DNA of 64,000 nucleotides, from the sequence record NC_025447.1, one strand, 5' to 3'. The notes beneath the pieces were generated by a model. That model was given only the letters and a program-made list of their open reading frames with translations. It did no database searches and had not been told where the DNA came from. Positions 52,865 through 64,000 of this stretch are shown piece after piece. A program made the position numbers and the translations under genes. Each line of letters starts with the position of its first letter. The first letter of the stretch is position 1. The stretch is from Escherichia phage 121Q.

Positions 52865-53284
52865 ATGTTAAATGAACGTATTAAAAATGCACTACATGTA
52901 TTGAACCAAGAAGTCAATTCTATTCATAAAAGTACTGACCGTTATAAAGTAATGCATGAAATCAAACAAGAATTGGAATCTATTAATAAGGGAGAGTGGT
53001 GGTATCTTCAGCCCGAATATCAAACTCGTGAATTAAACGATGTTGAAAAAGAAATTGTCAAATTCATCACTACTCGTTATTGTGATACATCAGAGAATGA
53101 TGTATCAGCGAACTTCAATCTTACTAAATTGGAAGTCGAAGAAAAATTCCATTTTGATTGGCTTGATTGGATTGAAATGGTAATGGAACTAGAAGAAAAA
53201 TTCAATGTTGAAGTTGATGAAAAGTTCGAGAATAATGAAACTAAGCTGTATGAACTAGTAGAACATATTCAAAAAATGTTGTAA
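52865..53284 (+). CDS. hypothetical protein
   Basis: ORF in track with RBS. Confidence 0.45.
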   Translation: MLNERIKNALHVLNQEVNSIHKSTDRYKVMHEIKQELESINKGEWWYLQPEYQTRELNDVEKEIVKFITTRYCDTSENDVSANFNLTKLEVEEKFHFDWLDWIEMVMELEEKFNVEVDEKFENNETKLYELVEHIQKML

Positions 53285-53337: not shown

Positions 53338-53712
53338 ATGAGTATGTTAGAAATAATTGTTTCAAAAATTCTTATTCCATTTTGGAAACCAATTTCTTTT
53401 GTATTATTAATTGGCGGTTCAGCTTATGCTGGTTGGGAAGCTAATACTTATTACAGTGGATATCAACAAAGCATAGAGCAACAAATAGCTAAAAAAGTTG
53501 ATACCGCCTTGGATAAAATGCAACAAGAAAATGCAAAAAATTACCTTGAAACTAAAAAAATCATGGAAGATAATGCTAAAGTTATTGAAACAAAGGTTCC
53601 TTTTATTGTAGAACGTGAAGTTTATAAGAATGTATGTTTAGATGAAGATGGTGTAAAAGTACTGAATGAACTAAAACAAAATTCTCAAGCAGCGAGGAAT
53701 AAATTCAAATGA
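53338..53712 (+). CDS. putative i-spanin (Rz-like)
   Basis: N-terminal transmembrane segment then charged helical region; next gene is a lipoprotein with overlapping start. Confidence 0.45.
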   Translation: MSMLEIIVSKILIPFWKPISFVLLIGGSAYAGWEANTYYSGYQQSIEQQIAKKVDTALDKMQQENAKNYLETKKIMEDNAKVIETKVPFIVEREVYKNVCLDEDGVKVLNELKQNSQAARNKFK

Positions 53713-54017
53713 AAAAATTATTAGTTCCAATGATTTCTTTTTTAATTATAAGTGGGTGTGCCGAGCAAGTAAAACTACAATCCCCCGCACCAATTAAACA
53801 AGAAATTCTGTTAGAAAGATGTGATGATGATACACCTCTACCACAAAAAATTATGATTGACAAAAATGGTTTTAAAGGTTATGATGGTGCAGAAATTCTT
53901 AAAGTACTTACTCGTTGGGATGCAGTCTACAATGAATGTGCTTTAAAACACGACGCATTGATTAAAACTATTCGTGATTTACAAGGTAAAGATATTAAAA
54001 TCAATATCAAGGAATAA
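53709..54017 (+). CDS. putative o-spanin lipoprotein (Rz1-like)
   Basis: signal peptide with lipobox LIISGC. Confidence 0.45.
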   Translation: MKKLLVPMISFLIISGCAEQVKLQSPAPIKQEILLERCDDDTPLPQKIMIDKNGFKGYDGAEILKVLTRWDAVYNECALKHDALIKTIRDLQGKDIKINIKE

Positions 54018-54018
54018 A

Positions 54019-54630
54019 ATGAACAAATATCATGTTTACTATACGACAAAATTATCACTTCTTGAAGAATTAAATCAACGAAGTACTAAGATGAAACGCT
54101 ACACTTTAAATGGTATTACTTTTCGATATTTCCCACAAAAAGTTCTTACTTTTGTTAAGAATCCAAAATGCGTGGCATGTGGGATTGAAGCTACTGAAGT
54201 ACGCATTGAACGTTCATTATGTTCTGATCCAGTATATGGTAAACCACATTTAAATGTATATGCTGTATGTGGTCTTTATGAAGTTTTAATGACAGTTGAC
54301 CATAATCATCTGGCATCTAAGGGTGGACCTGATTTAGAGTCAAACTTTAATACTATGTGCTCCAGATGTAATCAACTACGTTCGAATAAAACTGAAACAG
54401 TTGATGAGTTTCTTGAGAAAGTTAAAGGTCGTAATCTTCTCCAAGAACATATGAATAATTTCTTTAATGTACAAAAAAAGAAAAATAACATTGACAAGTC
54501 GAAACTACTAGAAGAACGTAGGTTACGTCAAGAATTATGGGAAACTGATCATCTATGGCATGTTCGAGAGTTTGGTCGTCATATGAAAGCTTTGAAAAAA
54601 GAACAGAAGAAATTGAATAAACATGATTGA
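54019..54630 (+). mobile_element. HNH homing endonuclease gene
   Basis: Cys pair CVAC, HNH core VDHNHLASKGG...N...CSRCN. Confidence 0.6.
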
Positions 54631-60909: not shown

Positions 60910-61254
60910 ATGAAATACATCGATAAAGGTACAGTGGAGACACAGTACTGGAATATCCATATTGCTGGTGATATTCAAACAGCAAGAGAGTACACAAGAA
61001 AGTTTGCGTTTAAGCATGGCTTTTGTGTACAATTAATTCCCTGTGAATATATCTACACTGGCGGTCTTGAAAGTGGGATGTGTGCTCGTATTATTCAGTA
61101 CCCACGCTTTCCAAAAGAAGAAGTATATCTCAACCGAGATGTATTAAACTATGCAAAGGGTTTAGCTGAAGAGTTGTGTCAAAAGAGCTTTACTATAGAG
61201 CGAAATAATGATACAATTTATTATGAAAGTGATGAACCTTTACACAAGAAATAA
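60910..61254 (+). CDS. hypothetical protein
   Basis: ATG with RBS GGAG; TATAAT box just upstream. Confidence 0.45.
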   Translation: MKYIDKGTVETQYWNIHIAGDIQTAREYTRKFAFKHGFCVQLIPCEYIYTGGLESGMCARIIQYPRFPKEEVYLNRDVLNYAKGLAEELCQKSFTIERNNDTIYYESDEPLHKK

Positions 61255-61265
61255 AAGGAAAATAT

Positions 61266-61397
61266 ATGAATGGACTAAAGAAATTTGGTAAAGATTTTCT
61301 AAAATGTATACGCTATACATATGATGCAAACCCAGAAATGACTGCTATTGTGGGTGTGTTTATTACACTCGTTGTATTAAGCTTTATTGTGGTGTAA
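61266..61397 (+). CDS. tiny membrane peptide (43 aa), not in ORF track
   Basis: hand-translated; C-terminal hydrophobic segment. Confidence 0.3.
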   Translation: MNGLKKFGKDFLKCIRYTYDANPEMTAIVGVFITLVVLSFIVV

Positions 61398-61400
61398 CAT

Positions 61401-61604
61401 ATGATTGAAATTAATGCTGATATCTATTGTAGTGCAGCACCAAATTACTTCATTTATGCACTAAGTACATTTGGTGAAACTGAAGGTGAAACTTTTGTTT
61501 TAGTAGAGAATACTACATGGTTCAAAACAAGTAATAAAATTCCGAAAGATGTTTTGGAAACATATGTTCGTATTGAAAATAAAAACATATATGTAATTTT
61601 ATAG
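61401..61604 (+). CDS. hypothetical small protein
   Basis: ORF in track. Confidence 0.4.
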   Translation: MIEINADIYCSAAPNYFIYALSTFGETEGETFVLVENTTWFKTSNKIPKDVLETYVRIENKNIYVIL

Positions 61605-61611
61605 GTAAAAT

Positions 61612-62022
61612 ATGATTGAAATGGAAGGAACTCTGGTGTATGATCCAGACCGTGGCACTATGAAAAAGAAGAAGGACTTCTGGTTAGTACTGCAACTTCC
61701 ATTACAGTTGGTTAGATACTACCAGTACTTCATCAGAACTGATTTACATATTGACGTTAAAGATCCTCAATGGGGAGCACATGTTAGTATAGTGCGTGGT
61801 GAAGTACCACCACATGAAGAGTTCTGGAAAAAATACGATGGAATGAAAGTAAAGATAAAGTTCAATCCTTGTATTGAGATAGTAAAAGATAAAAAGAATC
61901 CAGGTTCATTCTTTATCATTGAATTTGAAGATGATTTCATCACACACATTAGAAACGAACTAGGACTACCAACCAAGTACTTTAAATATCACATAACTGT
62001 AGGTAGAACCTACTACGATTAA
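61612..62022 (+). CDS. hypothetical protein
   Basis: ORF in track. Confidence 0.45.
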   Translation: MIEMEGTLVYDPDRGTMKKKKDFWLVLQLPLQLVRYYQYFIRTDLHIDVKDPQWGAHVSIVRGEVPPHEEFWKKYDGMKVKIKFNPCIEIVKDKKNPGSFFIIEFEDDFITHIRNELGLPTKYFKYHITVGRTYYD

Positions 62023-62190
62023 TGTGGTTTTTACAGTAAATATGTCTTGTAATAAAATAAAAATATGCTATACTACTTAAACATTTGAAAAGAACGTTTT
62101 TGTACTGTAGAAAGTCCGATGAGGCTTTTGCAAATGGCCTCTTTGCCATCTTTGTGATTGCCCATCTTAACAATCAACAAAGGAGGCGTT

Positions 62191-63117
62191 TTGAAACAAG
62201 CGAAAAAAGCACTGAAAACTAAGACTACTTATGGTGTTCTAGTTTGCACAGTACTTGTCGCTGCGATTGGATTTTATGGTTTTTCTCAAAATGATCGTGT
62301 ATCATCATCGGACGAAAGTCAGGTACACAATTTAAAACCACAAGTTACGCAAATTCAAAAGCAGGAATTACCAAAGGTAGAAATATCAAAGGATGTTCCA
62401 CGCGGCGAGAAGCATTATACGGTTCAACCTGGTGATAGTTATTATTCTATTGCTAAAAAGTTTAAACCTAAAAATGTACAACTTGAAGAGTATGTTATTT
62501 TGTTGAAAAATATCAATTTAAATGCTACTCTTCATACTTCTCAGGGTATCTTTATCCCAACAAAAGAGGATTTGAAGAACGTATTGTTACCAGATGTGAC
62601 TGTACTGTTTGATTATAATGATCCAGAAATTGTCAATCACATCAAAGAAGCTGAAGGTTCAATTGAATTTCAGTCCAAGAACAAACGCCGTTTACTTGGT
62701 GGGAAAGTCGGAGTTCCTTTCCACAATTCTAAATTTCATCCCTACAAGGACATGAAAGGTAATTATACAATAGGTTATGGGCATTATTTGGGTAGAAAAG
62801 AATCTGATGCGATTAAGTACAGAAACGGTATTACCAAAGCTCAAGCCAACAAACTTTTAATGCAAGATATGAAAAGAACATATGATGACTTTTTATTATT
62901 GATGCAGAAAAAAGAAGCAGTAAATCTGACCAAAGAACAACAACGTATTCTTTATGAAATGTCCTATACAATGGGTGTTGATAAATTAGCAACGTTTAAT
63001 AAACTTTGGAAAAGTGTGAAAAATGATAACCCTAAGAAATTTAAAAAAGAAATTATGAATTCCTTATGGTATCGTCAAGTTACAAACCGAGCAGATTTGT
63101 TGTTAAGTTCACTCTAA
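62191..63117 (+). CDS. endolysin: N-terminal membrane anchor, LysM-like segment, T4-lysozyme-family (GH24) catalytic domain; TTG start
   Basis: RBS AAAGGAGG 5 nt upstream of TTG; hydrophobic segment; LysM-like YTVQPGDSYYSIAKKF; YTIGYGHYLG resembles the T4 lysozyme core. Confidence 0.6.
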   Translation: MKQAKKALKTKTTYGVLVCTVLVAAIGFYGFSQNDRVSSSDESQVHNLKPQVTQIQKQELPKVEISKDVPRGEKHYTVQPGDSYYSIAKKFKPKNVQLEEYVILLKNINLNATLHTSQGIFIPTKEDLKNVLLPDVTVLFDYNDPEIVNHIKEAEGSIEFQSKNKRRLLGGKVGVPFHNSKFHPYKDMKGNYTIGYGHYLGRKESDAIKYRNGITKAQANKLLMQDMKRTYDDFLLLMQKKEAVNLTKEQQRILYEMSYTMGVDKLATFNKLWKSVKNDNPKKFKKEIMNSLWYRQVTNRADLLLSSL

Positions 63118-63133
63118 AAAAGGTAGGTAAATT

Positions 63134-63466
63134 ATGCTAAAATTAAATATTCAAGGTAATGTTGATTTTACTACAGCAATTCAAGATGCAATTTACGATG
63201 GTGCTAAATGTCTTGAAAAGTTCCGTACTTCAACTGTAATGGATATTGAAGTTCATGTGAAGAAAGAGCATAAGTCTCAATACTCTGTGACTCTAACATC
63301 AGGTAGTAAATCAGTTACTGCCGATGCAGCAGATTTATACAAAGCAATTGGTGATTCATTTGAAAAAATGGAAACTGTATTCAGTAAAGACAAAAGCATT
63401 AAATTACACCGCCGAAACCATCCAGAACACCCAGTTCTTGATGATTTGACAGAAAACGAAGAGTAA
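63134..63466 (+). CDS. ribosome hibernation factor homologue (HPF/RaiA family)
   Basis: colinear resemblance to E. coli HPF recalled from memory (LNI.GN.V..T.A, KLE, DLY.AI). Confidence 0.55.
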   Translation: MLKLNIQGNVDFTTAIQDAIYDGAKCLEKFRTSTVMDIEVHVKKEHKSQYSVTLTSGSKSVTADAADLYKAIGDSFEKMETVFSKDKSIKLHRRNHPEHPVLDDLTENEE

Positions 63467-63477
63467 TATATACTAAA

Positions 63478-63506
63478 GGGACAGATTAATTCTGTCCCTT
63501 TTCTTA
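63478..63506 (+). terminator. rho-independent terminator
   Basis: GGGACAG...CTGTCCC stem plus T-run. Confidence 0.65.
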
Positions 63507-63519
63507 TGGAGTTTTAATT

Positions 63520-63915
63520 ATGAATTATTCCTGGATGGAAATTGTAAAATCTATAATATCAACACATGATATGGACTTACCTGAACACCTAGTTATTAAT
63601 AGATGGTACTATCCATATCCAGATAACCGTTGTGTTGGGATTGGATTTTTTATTAATGAAAAATCTCAATATATTGGATTAATTGAAGATTATACAAAAA
63701 CCAACATTGCGTTCTCTATTGAGTTGAATGTAGATCACATAAAATACTACACTAATAAAATGGACGAAGACGATGGTGATGTTATAATTCCAGCAGAAAT
63801 AGACGAAGCTTCATTTTTTCAGTTATCATTAATTCATGATGTATCTGATATTACTTATGATAATGTGAAAGACCTTTTTATATTGTACAATAAACTGTAT
63901 AATTACTTTTTATAA
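63520..63915 (+). CDS. hypothetical protein
   Basis: RBS GGAG. Confidence 0.45.
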   Translation: MNYSWMEIVKSIISTHDMDLPEHLVINRWYYPYPDNRCVGIGFFINEKSQYIGLIEDYTKTNIAFSIELNVDHIKYYTNKMDEDDGDVIIPAEIDEASFFQLSLIHDVSDITYDNVKDLFILYNKLYNYFL

Positions 63916-63928
63916 TGGAGATAAATTT

Positions 63929-64000
63929 ATGGAATATACAATATGTATAGTTATATGTATCATATCCTTACTAGTCGGGGTTGGTGTGATGATTTATTGT
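63929..64000 (+). CDS. membrane protein, 3-prime truncated by window end
   Basis: ATG with RBS GGAG; hydrophobic N-terminus. Confidence 0.35.
   Translation, partial: MEYTICIVICIISLLVGVGVMIYC

What the first reader, a model, noticed from the sequence alone, without database searches (positions are those of the whole stretch)
62191..63117. Endolysin with membrane anchor plus LysM plus GH24 lysozyme domain, initiated at TTG, far from the spanins
The lysozyme gene combines an N-terminal hydrophobic anchor (like a signal-anchor-release endolysin), a LysM-like peptidoglycan-binding segment and a T4-lysozyme-like catalytic core. The only RBS-supported start is TTG. The candidate spanin pair lies ~8 kb upstream (53338-54017) and no holin is evident next to either, so lysis genes appear dispersed.
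Basis: partly seen in the sequence, partly recalled or inferred. Interest (0 to 1): 0.45.

Follow-up and report, generated by a model that had tools for sequence, protein, structure and literature searches.

The report
Membrane-anchored LysM lysozyme of jumbo coliphage
This is the already described membrane-anchored LysM plus T4-type lysozyme of Rak2-like jumbo phages, probably a tethered lysis enzyme, and its unusual TTG start and a conserved folded RNA leader suggest its production is deliberately throttled.

Summary
Window 62191-63117 (+) encodes a 308-aa protein: a basic N-tail, one hydrophobic helix, a disordered linker, a LysM fold and a T4-lysozyme (GH24) domain with Glu155/Asp187/Thr193. 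It starts at TTG behind AAGGAGG. The window is an Asteriusvirus jumbo coliphage. The same CDS is annotated in PBECO4 and phAPEC6, and Buttimer et al. 2017 described this architecture for CBB_187 and its homologues, so the finding is already known.

What the analysis adds:
- The non-ATG start (TTG or GTG) is conserved across genera.
- An ~80-nt structured leader with covariation occurs once per genome, only upstream of this gene.
- The gene forms a conserved pair with an HPF/RaiA gene.
- Distant relatives carry a ~90-aa cytoplasmic domain before the helix and sit next to homologous spanins.

This favours a stably tethered, Sec-exported lysis muramidase over a signal-arrest-release enzyme.

Caveat: these phages also encode a soluble 162-aa GH24 lysozyme with shown muralytic activity. 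Which enzyme is "the" endolysin is therefore unsettled. Dispersed lysis genes are normal for T4-like phages.

The parts
62047..62074 (+). Candidate sigma-70-type promoter: TTGTAA (62047-62052), 16-nt spacer, extended -10 TGcTATACT (62066-62074)
   Evidence: Consensus scan, 9 of 12 with TG. Such sites are not above chance in this AT-rich stretch. However, TGCTATAAT/TATACT is retained in UE-S1 and in the SE_PL clade, and RaK2 has TTGACA-17-TAAAAT. Inferred, not shown.
62073..62152 (+). Conserved structured 5' leader RNA motif. It contains the invariant core GTAGAAAGTCC (62107-62117) and the P2 hairpin GAGGCT/GGCCTC (62121-62141).
   Evidence: The covariance model R1 hits here at 60.4 bits (E=5e-14). 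It is the only credible hit in the 64-kb window, and there is one hit per related genome. 81-84.5% of cells are paired against 43-62% in slid controls. Eight pairs show compensatory changes. No Rfam family matches. The core motif is unique in the window.
62145..62187 (+). Predicted hairpin that pairs an upstream anti-SD segment (62145-62160) with the Shine-Dalgarno region (62171-62187; SD AAGGAGG at 62180-62186)
   Evidence: RNAfold MFE. The SD is also paired when the whole leader is folded (z=-2.34). SD occlusion ranks 7th of 97 crude gene calls in the window. The shuffle test is only marginal here (z about -1.6, p about 0.07) but strong in the Mimas, Eneladus and EJP2 clades.
62191..63117 (+). 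CDS of 308 aa with a TTG start: membrane-anchored LysM-GH24 muramidase
   Evidence: 100% identical over residues 14-308 to the PBECO4 and phAPEC6 proteins.
62227..62283 (+). Hydrophobic helix (residues 13-31, TYGVLVCTVLVAAIGFYGF): signal anchor, N-in/C-out
   Evidence: Hydrophobicity and flanking charges. Conserved in all 33 aligned relatives. One transmembrane domain was also reported for GAP32 gp180 and CBB_187.
62284..62406 (+). Low-confidence Ser/Gln-rich linker (residues 32-72) with the conserved QVTQIQKQ motif
   Evidence: pLDDT below 50. Motif conservation.
62407..62556 (+). LysM-type peptidoglycan-binding domain (residues 73-122)
   Evidence: Pfam LysM. Beta-alpha-alpha-beta fold in the AF2 model.
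62623..63114 (+). GH24 T4-lysozyme-like catalytic domain (residues 145-308). Glu155 is at 62653-62655, Asp187 at 62749-62751 and Thr193 at 62767-62769. A conserved ~23-aa insertion lies between the Glu and the Asp.
   Evidence: Pfam. The PDB profile aligns residues 188-310 to T4L 17-151. Foldseek. Invariant columns.
63134..63466 (+). HPF/RaiA-type ribosome-associated factor gene, 16 nt downstream; probably co-transcribed
   Evidence: PBECO4 annotation. PHROG S30EA. The adjacency is kept in GAP32, Yen9-03, UE-S1, XbC2 and XaC1, and in distant metagenomic relatives.
63475..63501 (.). GC-rich hairpin terminator closing the lysozyme-HPF unit
   Evidence: Terminator scan. UE-S1 annotates a terminator at the same place.
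53338..53712 (+). i-spanin (Rz-like, N-terminal transmembrane helix)
   Evidence: PHROG 1152, E=6.6e-29. PBECO4 gp061 is annotated 'Rz-like spanin'. Listed by Kongari et al. 2018.
53709..54017 (+). o-spanin candidate (lipoprotein with lipobox IISGC), overlapping the i-spanin by 4 nt
   Evidence: Sequence. Homologous to the lipoprotein next to the lysozyme gene in L024 (E=3e-15).

Best explanation
The gene encodes a type II (N-in/C-out) inner-membrane protein. The Sec system would insert the uncleaved N-terminal helix. This leaves a flexible ~40-residue linker, a LysM peptidoglycan-binding module and a T4-lysozyme-type muramidase in the periplasm.

It most likely serves as a lysis muramidase that does not need a holin to reach the wall. 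It probably works while still tethered, with the linker and LysM letting it reach the murein, rather than being released like a SAR endolysin.

Such an enzyme is dangerous once exported, so its amount appears to be held down at translation. The evidence for that is a conserved weak TTG/GTG start codon and a conserved structured 5' leader that pairs with the Shine-Dalgarno sequence.

Shown here: the domains, the catalytic residues, the conserved start codon, the conserved leader structure and the gene contexts. Inferred: the topology, activity while tethered, the role in lysis and translational throttling.
For: Domains and catalytic triad.

Anchor and charge distribution.

Not a virion protein: phAPEC6 Gp293 was absent from virion mass spectrometry (PMC7247149).

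Toxicity: expression of the CBB homologue inhibited E. coli growth (PMC5259590, data not shown there).

Lysis link: in distant relatives L024 and L104, homologues of this window's i-spanin (E=3e-13) and o-spanin (E=3e-15) lie immediately upstream of the homologous gene (E=6e-45).

Stable anchor: L024, L104, P0078 and P0079 carry an N-terminal domain of about 85-100 aa before the helix; L024 and L104 are 40% identical across it.

Throttled translation:
- TTG or GTG starts in every relative examined outside the RaK2 locus (L008).
- The SD is paired in the MFE and centroid structures; the leader folds with z=-2.34.
- SD:anti-SD duplex z-scores are -2 to -7 in the Mimas, Eneladus and EJP2 clades.
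- The leader motif shows covariation and occurs once per genome.
Against: - There are no expression, topology or activity data for this protein.
- A soluble 162-aa GH24 paralogue with demonstrated muralytic activity exists in the same genomes and could be the main endolysin.
- SD occlusion is only marginal in the window's own clade (p about 0.07) and absent in the SE_PL clade.
- In Rak2-like phages the cytoplasmic domain is missing, so the helix could have become releasable.
- The simple hydrophobicity sum of the helix is similar to those of the P1 and phage 21 SAR domains (comparator sequences recalled from memory).
- In the window's clade, G-F-S|Q after the helix could be a signal peptidase site, although it is not conserved in the family.
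Confidence: 0.45

Rival explanations
1. It is a signal-arrest-release (SAR) endolysin. The N-terminal helix holds an inactive enzyme in the membrane. A pinholin or holin depolarises the membrane, the helix slips out, and the soluble enzyme then degrades the wall.
For: - An N-terminal helix with several Gly/Ala residues and small-xxx-small motifs; its hydrophobicity sum (1.13) is close to those of P1 Lyz and R21 (0.46 and 0.78) (comparator sequences from memory).
- Buttimer et al. proposed this reading.
- No holin lies next to the gene.
Against: - Gly/Ala/Ser/Thr content is 0.37 (family median 0.37) against about 0.53-0.63 in the SAR comparators.
- The catalytic domain is about 110 residues away from the helix, behind a linker and LysM, unlike the SAR endolysins P1 Lyz and R21 (established knowledge).
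- Homologues carry an N-terminal domain of about 85-100 aa before the helix, which argues against release.
Confidence: 0.25
2. It is not the lysis enzyme. It is an accessory periplasmic wall-remodelling hydrolase made before lysis, together with the ribosome factor HPF. The soluble 162-aa lysozyme plus an unidentified holin carries out lysis.
For: - The gene sits among small non-structural genes and forms a conserved unit with HPF behind a sigma-70-like promoter.
- The late-promoter-like motif TATAAATA is absent nearby.
- A soluble muralytic paralogue lies in a late baseplate operon.
Against: - The gene is adjacent to spanins in distant relatives.
- The CBB homologue is toxic when expressed.
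- The 162-aa paralogue lies between the gp5-like hub and gp25-like baseplate genes, so it may be tail-related rather than a lysis enzyme, although it was not found in CBB virions.
Confidence: 0.2
3. The hydrophobic segment is a cleavable Sec signal peptide, so the mature protein is a soluble periplasmic LysM-lysozyme.
For: It has the n-h-c layout of a signal peptide, with five Lys followed by 16-19 hydrophobic residues. In the window's clade, G30-F31-S32|Q33 fits the -3/-1 rule (sequence).
Against: That site is not conserved: other clades have Tyr, Leu or Ile at the corresponding -1 position. Relatives have the helix internal, after a domain of about 85-100 aa. Published TMHMM/Phobius calls for the homologues report a transmembrane domain. 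No signal-peptide predictor was available here.
Confidence: 0.07
4. It is a virion-borne lysozyme used to pierce the wall at infection.
For: [quoted passage not shown] PHROG 13211 (baseplate hub lysozyme) matches the catalytic domain.
Against: It was not detected in the phAPEC6 virion proteome, whereas the hub lysozyme Gp241 was. It has a membrane anchor. The match to hub proteins covers only the shared GH24 domain.
Confidence: 0.03

Closest known systems
CBB_187 / GAP32 gp180 / 121Q gp532 / RaK2 gp506 (predicted endolysin of Rak2-like jumbo phages; Buttimer et al. 2017, PMC5259590)
   Same: The same protein family and the same three-part architecture. The window protein is 100% identical over residues 14-308 to PBECO4 gp040 and phAPEC6 gp293c, and 49-55% identical to the CBB, GAP32 and RaK2 proteins.
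   Different: Nothing at the protein level. The paper does not discuss the non-ATG start, the leader RNA, the HPF pairing or the distant relatives.
SAR endolysins (P1 Lyz, phage 21 R21, phiKMV gp45)
   Same: GH24-type or related muramidases with an N-terminal hydrophobic helix that brings about Sec-dependent export without a holin.
   Different: Here a ~40-aa linker and a LysM module lie between the helix and the catalytic domain. The helix is less Gly/Ala-rich. Relatives have a cytoplasmic domain before it. Release has not been tested.
T4 lysozyme (gene e) and its translationally silent early transcripts
   Same: The same catalytic fold and Glu-Asp-Thr triad. In T4 the Shine-Dalgarno sequence and start codon of e are sequestered in a hairpin to prevent premature lysis (PMC3014915), which resembles the SD pairing predicted here.
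   Different: T4 E is soluble, cytoplasmic and holin-dependent. T4 relieves the block through late promoters inside the hairpin; no ATAAATA/TATAAATA motif is present inside this leader. The Glu-to-Asp spacing is 31 residues here against 8 in T4L.
LysUE1 / CBB_239, the 162-aa soluble GH24 lysozyme of the same phages
   Same: A paralogous catalytic domain that also has an insertion between the catalytic Glu and Asp (E-x21-D). Muralytic in vitro.
   Different: No anchor and no LysM. Encoded in the baseplate operon between the gp5-like hub and gp25-like genes.
Modular Gram-negative endolysins KZ144 and EL188, and Sec-exported Gram-positive endolysins such as Lys44 of fOg44 (the latter from my own knowledge)
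   Same: A wall-binding module joined to a catalytic module, which is rare in phages of Gram-negative hosts. Lys44 is exported ahead of lysis.
   Different: KZ144 and EL188 have no membrane anchor and a different binding domain. Lys44 has a cleaved signal peptide.

Membership tests
GH24 / T4-type phage lysozyme (Pfam PF00959) | Sequence match above the curated threshold | tested here: met
   45 bits against a cutoff of 22.3, E=1.7e-11. 33 of 33 relatives match. The PDB profile hits T4L at E=5e-14.
GH24 / T4-type phage lysozyme (Pfam PF00959) | T4-lysozyme fold | tested here: met
   AF2 pLDDT of about 90 for residues 145-308. Top Foldseek hits are T4L, with target TM 0.66-0.68.
GH24 / T4-type phage lysozyme (Pfam PF00959) | Catalytic Glu, Asp and Thr triad | tested here: met
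   E155, D187 and T193 are invariant in 33 sequences. D187 and T193 align to T4L D20 and T26. The spacing is E-x31-D instead of E-x8-D.
GH24 / T4-type phage lysozyme (Pfam PF00959) | Muramidase activity | not testable with these tools
The only indirect evidence is the toxicity of CBB_187.
LysM domain (Pfam PF01476) | Sequence match above the curated threshold | tested here: met
   22.5 bits against a cutoff of 20.9, but only profile positions 1-17 of 43 are covered. 21 of 33 relatives match, best E=1.3e-6.
LysM domain (Pfam PF01476) | Beta-alpha-alpha-beta fold | tested here: met
   AF2 elements E75-77, H84-91, H98-108 and E119-121, with pLDDT of about 90.
SAR (signal-arrest-release) endolysin | N-terminal hydrophobic helix that directs export | tested here: met
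   Residues 13-31, Kyte-Doolittle mean 1.86, with a basic N-tail.
SAR (signal-arrest-release) endolysin | Weakly hydrophobic helix rich in Gly/Ala/Ser/Thr | tested here: inconclusive
   0.37 here and as the family median, against 0.53 and 0.63 for P1 Lyz and R21 (comparators from memory). The summed insertion energies are similar.
SAR (signal-arrest-release) endolysin | Helix can leave the membrane, so nothing bulky lies on its cytoplasmic side | tested here: inconclusive
   The window protein has only a 12-aa tail. Homologues L024, L104, P0078 and P0079 have a conserved domain of about 85-100 aa before the helix.
SAR (signal-arrest-release) endolysin | Release and activation on membrane depolarisation | not testable with these tools
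   Needs fractionation and lysis assays.
Holin-endolysin-spanin lysis cassette | Clustered with holin and spanin genes | tested here: not met
   The spanins lie 8.2 kb away and no neighbour matched a holin family. Adjacency to spanins is seen only in the distant relatives L024 and L104.
T4 gene e-type translational control | Shine-Dalgarno sequence and start codon sequestered in a leader hairpin | tested here: inconclusive
   Paired in the MFE and centroid structures. Shuffle tests are strong in three clades, marginal here (p about 0.07) and absent in the SE_PL clade.
T4 gene e-type translational control | Late promoter inside the hairpin that gives an open transcript | tested here: not met
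   No TATAAATA or ATAAATA lies between the anti-SD and the SD. The late motif is taken from the CBB paper.
Any Rfam RNA family (for the leader) | Covariance-model match | tested here: not met
   The best hits in 61900-62400 are 12-20 bits, far below the gathering scores.

The most novel reading that the evidence does not exclude
The conserved ~80-110-nt leader is a previously undescribed cis-regulatory RNA. It comprises the invariant core GTAGAAAGTCC, the covarying hairpins P0 and P2, and an anti-SD segment.

Together with an obligatory weak TTG/GTG start, it would gate translation of a membrane-tethered, holin-independent endolysin. That endolysin is co-transcribed with a ribosome hibernation factor. 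On this reading, Rak2-like jumbo phages time lysis through translation of an exported enzyme rather than through a holin.
Probability: 0.3. Interest if true: 0.6.

Novelty: already known. Interest (0 to 1): 0.33.

Why it matters
The protein is a documented oddity: wall-binding modules and membrane anchors are both rare in endolysins of phages that infect Gram-negative bacteria. It adds nothing new as a gene. It does bear on an open practical question, namely how 350-kb jumbo phages time lysis when no holin has been found beside the enzyme. If the tethered-enzyme and translational-gating reading holds, it would be a lysis-control scheme distinct from both canonical holin-endolysin and SAR-pinholin systems. 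The leader would then be a new phage regulatory RNA. It also matters for annotation. Automatic gene callers often mis-start this gene, and truncated starts remove the anchor. This affects anyone cloning it as an enzybiotic.

Tried and rejected
- Rfam scan of 61900-62400 at E up to 10: only noise.
- The conserved GTAGAAAGTCC as a repeated phage promoter: it is unique in the window. The spacing between the upstream conserved TTTCGAAG box and this core varies from 18 to 27 nt with compensatory stem changes, which fits an RNA hairpin and not a -35/-10 pair.
- A T4-style late promoter inside the leader: none found. TATAAATA occurs only 3 times in the window, against 12.6 expected.
- The sigma-70 scan is not above chance in this AT-rich region (17 found, 16 expected). 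The promoter therefore rests on conservation only.
- Holin search among neighbours with PHROGs: 61266-61397, the 41-aa ORF starting at 63929 and the other neighbours hit only families of unknown function.
- A virion role: rejected from published proteomics.
- Looking for the leader motif in distant relatives (L024, L098, L102-L104, L106-L109): no credible hit. The motif is therefore limited to the core Rak2-like group.
- A literature search for Asteriusvirus transcriptomes found none, so the expression class could not be settled.
- The hydrophobicity comparison could not separate a SAR helix from a stable anchor.
Full report
**Identity of the window.** Megablast of 61000-64000 gives 99.8% identity to Escherichia phage vB_EcoM_CRJP21 and 97-99% to PBECO4, phAPEC6, SP27 and G17. 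All are ~350-kb jumbo myoviruses of the genus Asteriusvirus, the Rak2-like group. By tblastn the window protein is 100% identical to both over residues 14-308.

**Check of the observation.** The open frame runs 62158-63117.
- Pfam gives Phage_lysozyme (residues 182-289, E=1.7e-11) and a short but above-threshold LysM match (residues 76-92, 22.5 bits against 20.9).
- Scanned individually, 33 of 33 aligned relatives hit Phage_lysozyme and 21 of 33 hit LysM.
- An AlphaFold2 model built on a 33-sequence alignment is confident (pLDDT about 90) for residues 73-308. It shows a beta-alpha-alpha-beta unit at 75-121, which is the LysM fold, and a helical lysozyme domain at 145-308. Residues 1-72 are low confidence, as expected for a membrane helix plus a disordered linker.
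- The best Foldseek matches in the PDB are T4 lysozyme structures (target TM 0.66-0.68, about 25% identity).
- A profile search of PDB sequences aligns residues 188-310 to T4L 17-151. This puts D187 on D20 and T193 on T26.
- E155, G156, D187 and T193 are invariant in the alignment. I assign E155 to T4L E11 from the conserved E-G motif; the profile alignment does not reach that far. The Glu-to-Asp spacing is 31 residues instead of 8, because of a conserved insertion (SxExQSxxKRRLLGGxxGxxFxNxKFYPY).
- Residues 13-31 (TYGVLVCTVLVAAIGFYGF) have a Kyte-Doolittle mean of 1.86. Five Lys precede them and SQNDR follows, which fits an N-in/C-out signal anchor.
- The spanin pair is real. 53338-53712 hits PHROG 'Rz-like spanin' (E=6.6e-29). 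53709-54017 overlaps it by 4 nt and has a lipobox. Kongari et al. list PBECO4 and 121Q spanins.
- No neighbour of either locus matched a holin family.

**Start codon.** Every relative examined has TTG or GTG at the homologous position, behind GGAG(G/A) with a 4-5-nt spacer. The one exception is the RaK2 locus (L008), which uses ATG. The relatives span other Asteriusviruses, EJP2, Eneladusvirus, Mimasvirus, the SE_PL/PHA46 group, XaC1 and metagenomic contigs. In most of them an in-frame stop lies 9-30 nt upstream, so no other start is possible. In the window the frame stays open back to a TTG at 62158, which has no Shine-Dalgarno sequence. One 319-aa database entry shows that this upstream TTG is sometimes called as the start. 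XaC1 is annotated from a downstream ATG that removes the anchor.

**Prior knowledge.** Buttimer et al. 2017 (PMC5259590) describe CBB_187, with homologues GAP32 gp180, 121Q gp532 and RaK2 gp506. They report an N-terminal transmembrane domain, a LysM-like wall-binding domain and a C-terminal lysozyme domain. They predict it to be the endolysin, compare it with SAR endolysins, and note that induction inhibits E. coli growth. The phAPEC6 paper reports that Gp293 was not detected in virions, whereas the hub lysozyme Gp241 was. The finding as stated is therefore already known.

**Is it 'the' endolysin?** Each Rak2-like genome has three GH24 loci. In UE-S1, a 162-aa soluble lysozyme (LysUE1) lies between the gp5-like hub gene and the gp25-like gene. 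It was purified and shown to be muralytic (PMC12805682). Its sequence carries a shorter version of the same insertion (E20-x21-D42-x5-T48) and has no anchor. It is a serious rival for the canonical, holin-dependent role.

There is also evidence in favour of the anchored enzyme. An exhaustive HMMER scan of 1.84 billion representatives finds only 11 clusters at E<=1e-30, so the family is small. In one distant lineage (L024 and L104, 30% identity over the full length, E=6e-45), the gene lies immediately downstream of an i-spanin and an overlapping o-spanin. These are homologous to this window's spanins (E=3e-13 and 3e-15). That association supports a lysis role.

**Anchor or SAR?** The helix is 37% Gly/Ala/Ser/Thr, which is also the family median. 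The P1 and phage 21 SAR domains are about 53-63% (sequences from memory). The summed insertion energies are similar, so composition alone does not decide the question.

Two structural facts argue for a stable tether. First, about 110 residues (linker plus LysM) separate the helix from the catalytic domain, whereas in the SAR endolysins P1 Lyz and R21 the catalytic domain follows the helix directly (established knowledge). Second, the distant homologues L024, L104, P0078 and P0079 carry an N-terminal domain of about 85-100 aa before the helix; L024 and L104 are 40% identical across it (E=1e-25). It would have to cross the membrane for the helix to be released. By inference, the disordered linker (residues 32-72) could let the LysM and catalytic domains reach the murein while tethered. 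That would explain the toxicity of the CBB homologue. The Rak2-like proteins lack the cytoplasmic domain, so a switch to SAR behaviour cannot be excluded.

**Regulation.** The gene is preceded by a 110-170-bp intergenic gap in every genus examined. Within that gap, GTAGAAAGTCC...GRCTTTGTGCAA is almost invariant while the flanks diverge.
- The core motif is unique in the 64-kb window and matches no Rfam family.
- Folding and alignment indicate a stem UUUC:GAAA that encloses a hairpin (P0) whose sequence and length differ between clades. An A-rich linker follows, and then a second hairpin (P2), often with a GCAA loop.
- On an unfitted MAFFT alignment, my structure has 81% of cells paired against 43-59% for slid controls, and a covariation score of 0.249 against 0.187 in shuffles (0 of 500 reach it).
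- A covariance model built from it finds exactly one hit per related genome. The window hit is 62073-62152 at 60.4 bits, and there is nothing credible elsewhere.
- On the model-fitted alignment, 8 pairs carry compensatory changes (10 of 500 shuffles reach this). That alignment leans towards the structure, and the sequences represent only about five or six clades.
- Downstream, an anti-SD segment pairs with the Shine-Dalgarno region. In the window the whole leader folds at -33.1 kcal/mol (z=-2.34) with the SD and TTG paired.
- SD occlusion ranks 7th of 97 among crude gene calls in the window.
- Shuffle tests of the SD:upstream duplex give z of -2 to -7 in the Mimas, Eneladus and EJP2 clades, about -1.6 in the window's clade, and about 0 in part of the SE_PL clade.

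The precedent is T4 gene e, whose early transcripts hide the ribosome-binding site in a hairpin to avoid premature lysis (PMC3014915). Unlike in T4, I found no late-promoter motif inside this hairpin. If the block is relieved, the mechanism is unknown.

A sigma-70-like extended -10 promoter (TGcTATACT, 62066-62074) is conserved in several clades but is not statistically distinguishable from background. The gene is followed after 16 nt by an HPF/RaiA gene and then by a hairpin terminator. The lysozyme-HPF pairing persists even in relatives at 35-39% identity.

**Verdict.** It is an annotated and published feature of Rak2-like jumbo phages, so novelty is 'already known' and interest is modest. 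The most likely mechanism is a Sec-inserted, membrane-tethered LysM-GH24 muramidase that acts in lysis and is kept scarce by a weak start codon and a structured leader. SAR behaviour and an accessory, non-lysis role remain live alternatives. The conserved leader RNA, the near-universal non-ATG start, the HPF operon and the relatives that carry a cytoplasmic domain and adjacent spanins are, as far as the searched literature shows, new observations that deserve experimental follow-up.

Noticed in passing
window 62073-62190: A conserved structured 5' leader found only upstream of this gene. It has the invariant core GTAGAAAGTCC (62107-62117), covarying hairpins and an anti-SD:SD pairing. There is one covariance-model hit per Rak2-like genome and no Rfam match.
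   Followed up: yes
window 63134-63466: An HPF/RaiA (S30EA) ribosome-associated factor gene lies 16 nt after the lysozyme stop and before a terminator. The lysozyme-HPF pairing is conserved across genera and in distant metagenomic relatives (L102, L103). Why a lysis enzyme would be coupled to a ribosome hibernation factor is unexplained.
   Followed up: partly
L024 1403-3382; L104 3226-5185; proteins P0078, P0079: Distant homologues carry a conserved N-terminal cytoplasmic domain of about 85-100 aa before the membrane helix. In L024 and L104 the gene sits directly downstream of spanin genes homologous to those of this window.
   Followed up: yes
window 62653-62751 (residues 155-187); L101 4152-4640 (-): A conserved ~23-aa insertion lies between the catalytic Glu and Asp (E-x31-D, against E-x8-D in T4 lysozyme). 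A shorter version (E-x21-D) is present in the 162-aa paralogue LysUE1. Its structural role is unknown.
   Followed up: partly
L098 (XaC1) around 401-416; L093 (CMSTMSU) 401-665; protein P0001: Public gene calls for this family are often mis-started. XaC1 is annotated from a downstream ATG that removes the anchor; the likely true start is a GTG behind GGAGG. CMSTMSU is truncated by an apparent frameshift. Some entries start at the upstream TTG (62158 equivalent) and give 319 aa.
   Followed up: partly
window 61266-61397: A 43-aa ORF with a single C-terminal hydrophobic helix lies three genes upstream of the lysozyme. ORFs of similar size occupy the same relative position in GAP32 (gp177, annotated 'membrane protein') and Yen9-03 (g181, hypothetical). 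It matches a PHROG of unknown function and is not a typical holin.
   Followed up: partly
whole window: TATAAATA, the T4-type late promoter core, occurs only 3 times on both strands against 12.6 +/- 3.5 expected. This suggests selection against spurious late promoters in this mostly non-structural region.
   Followed up: no
window 63446-63501: A near-consensus sigma-70 promoter (TTGACA-17-TATACT, 11 of 12) overlaps the end of the HPF gene and runs straight into the strong hairpin at 63475-63501. This is an odd promoter-terminator juxtaposition.
   Followed up: no
window 52865-53284 and 53974-54630: The spanin pair is flanked upstream by an ORF with weak acyl-carrier-protein similarity (PHROG E=1e-7) and downstream by an HNH endonuclease gene. 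In GAP32, HNH endonuclease genes are inserted between the lysozyme and HPF genes.
   Followed up: no
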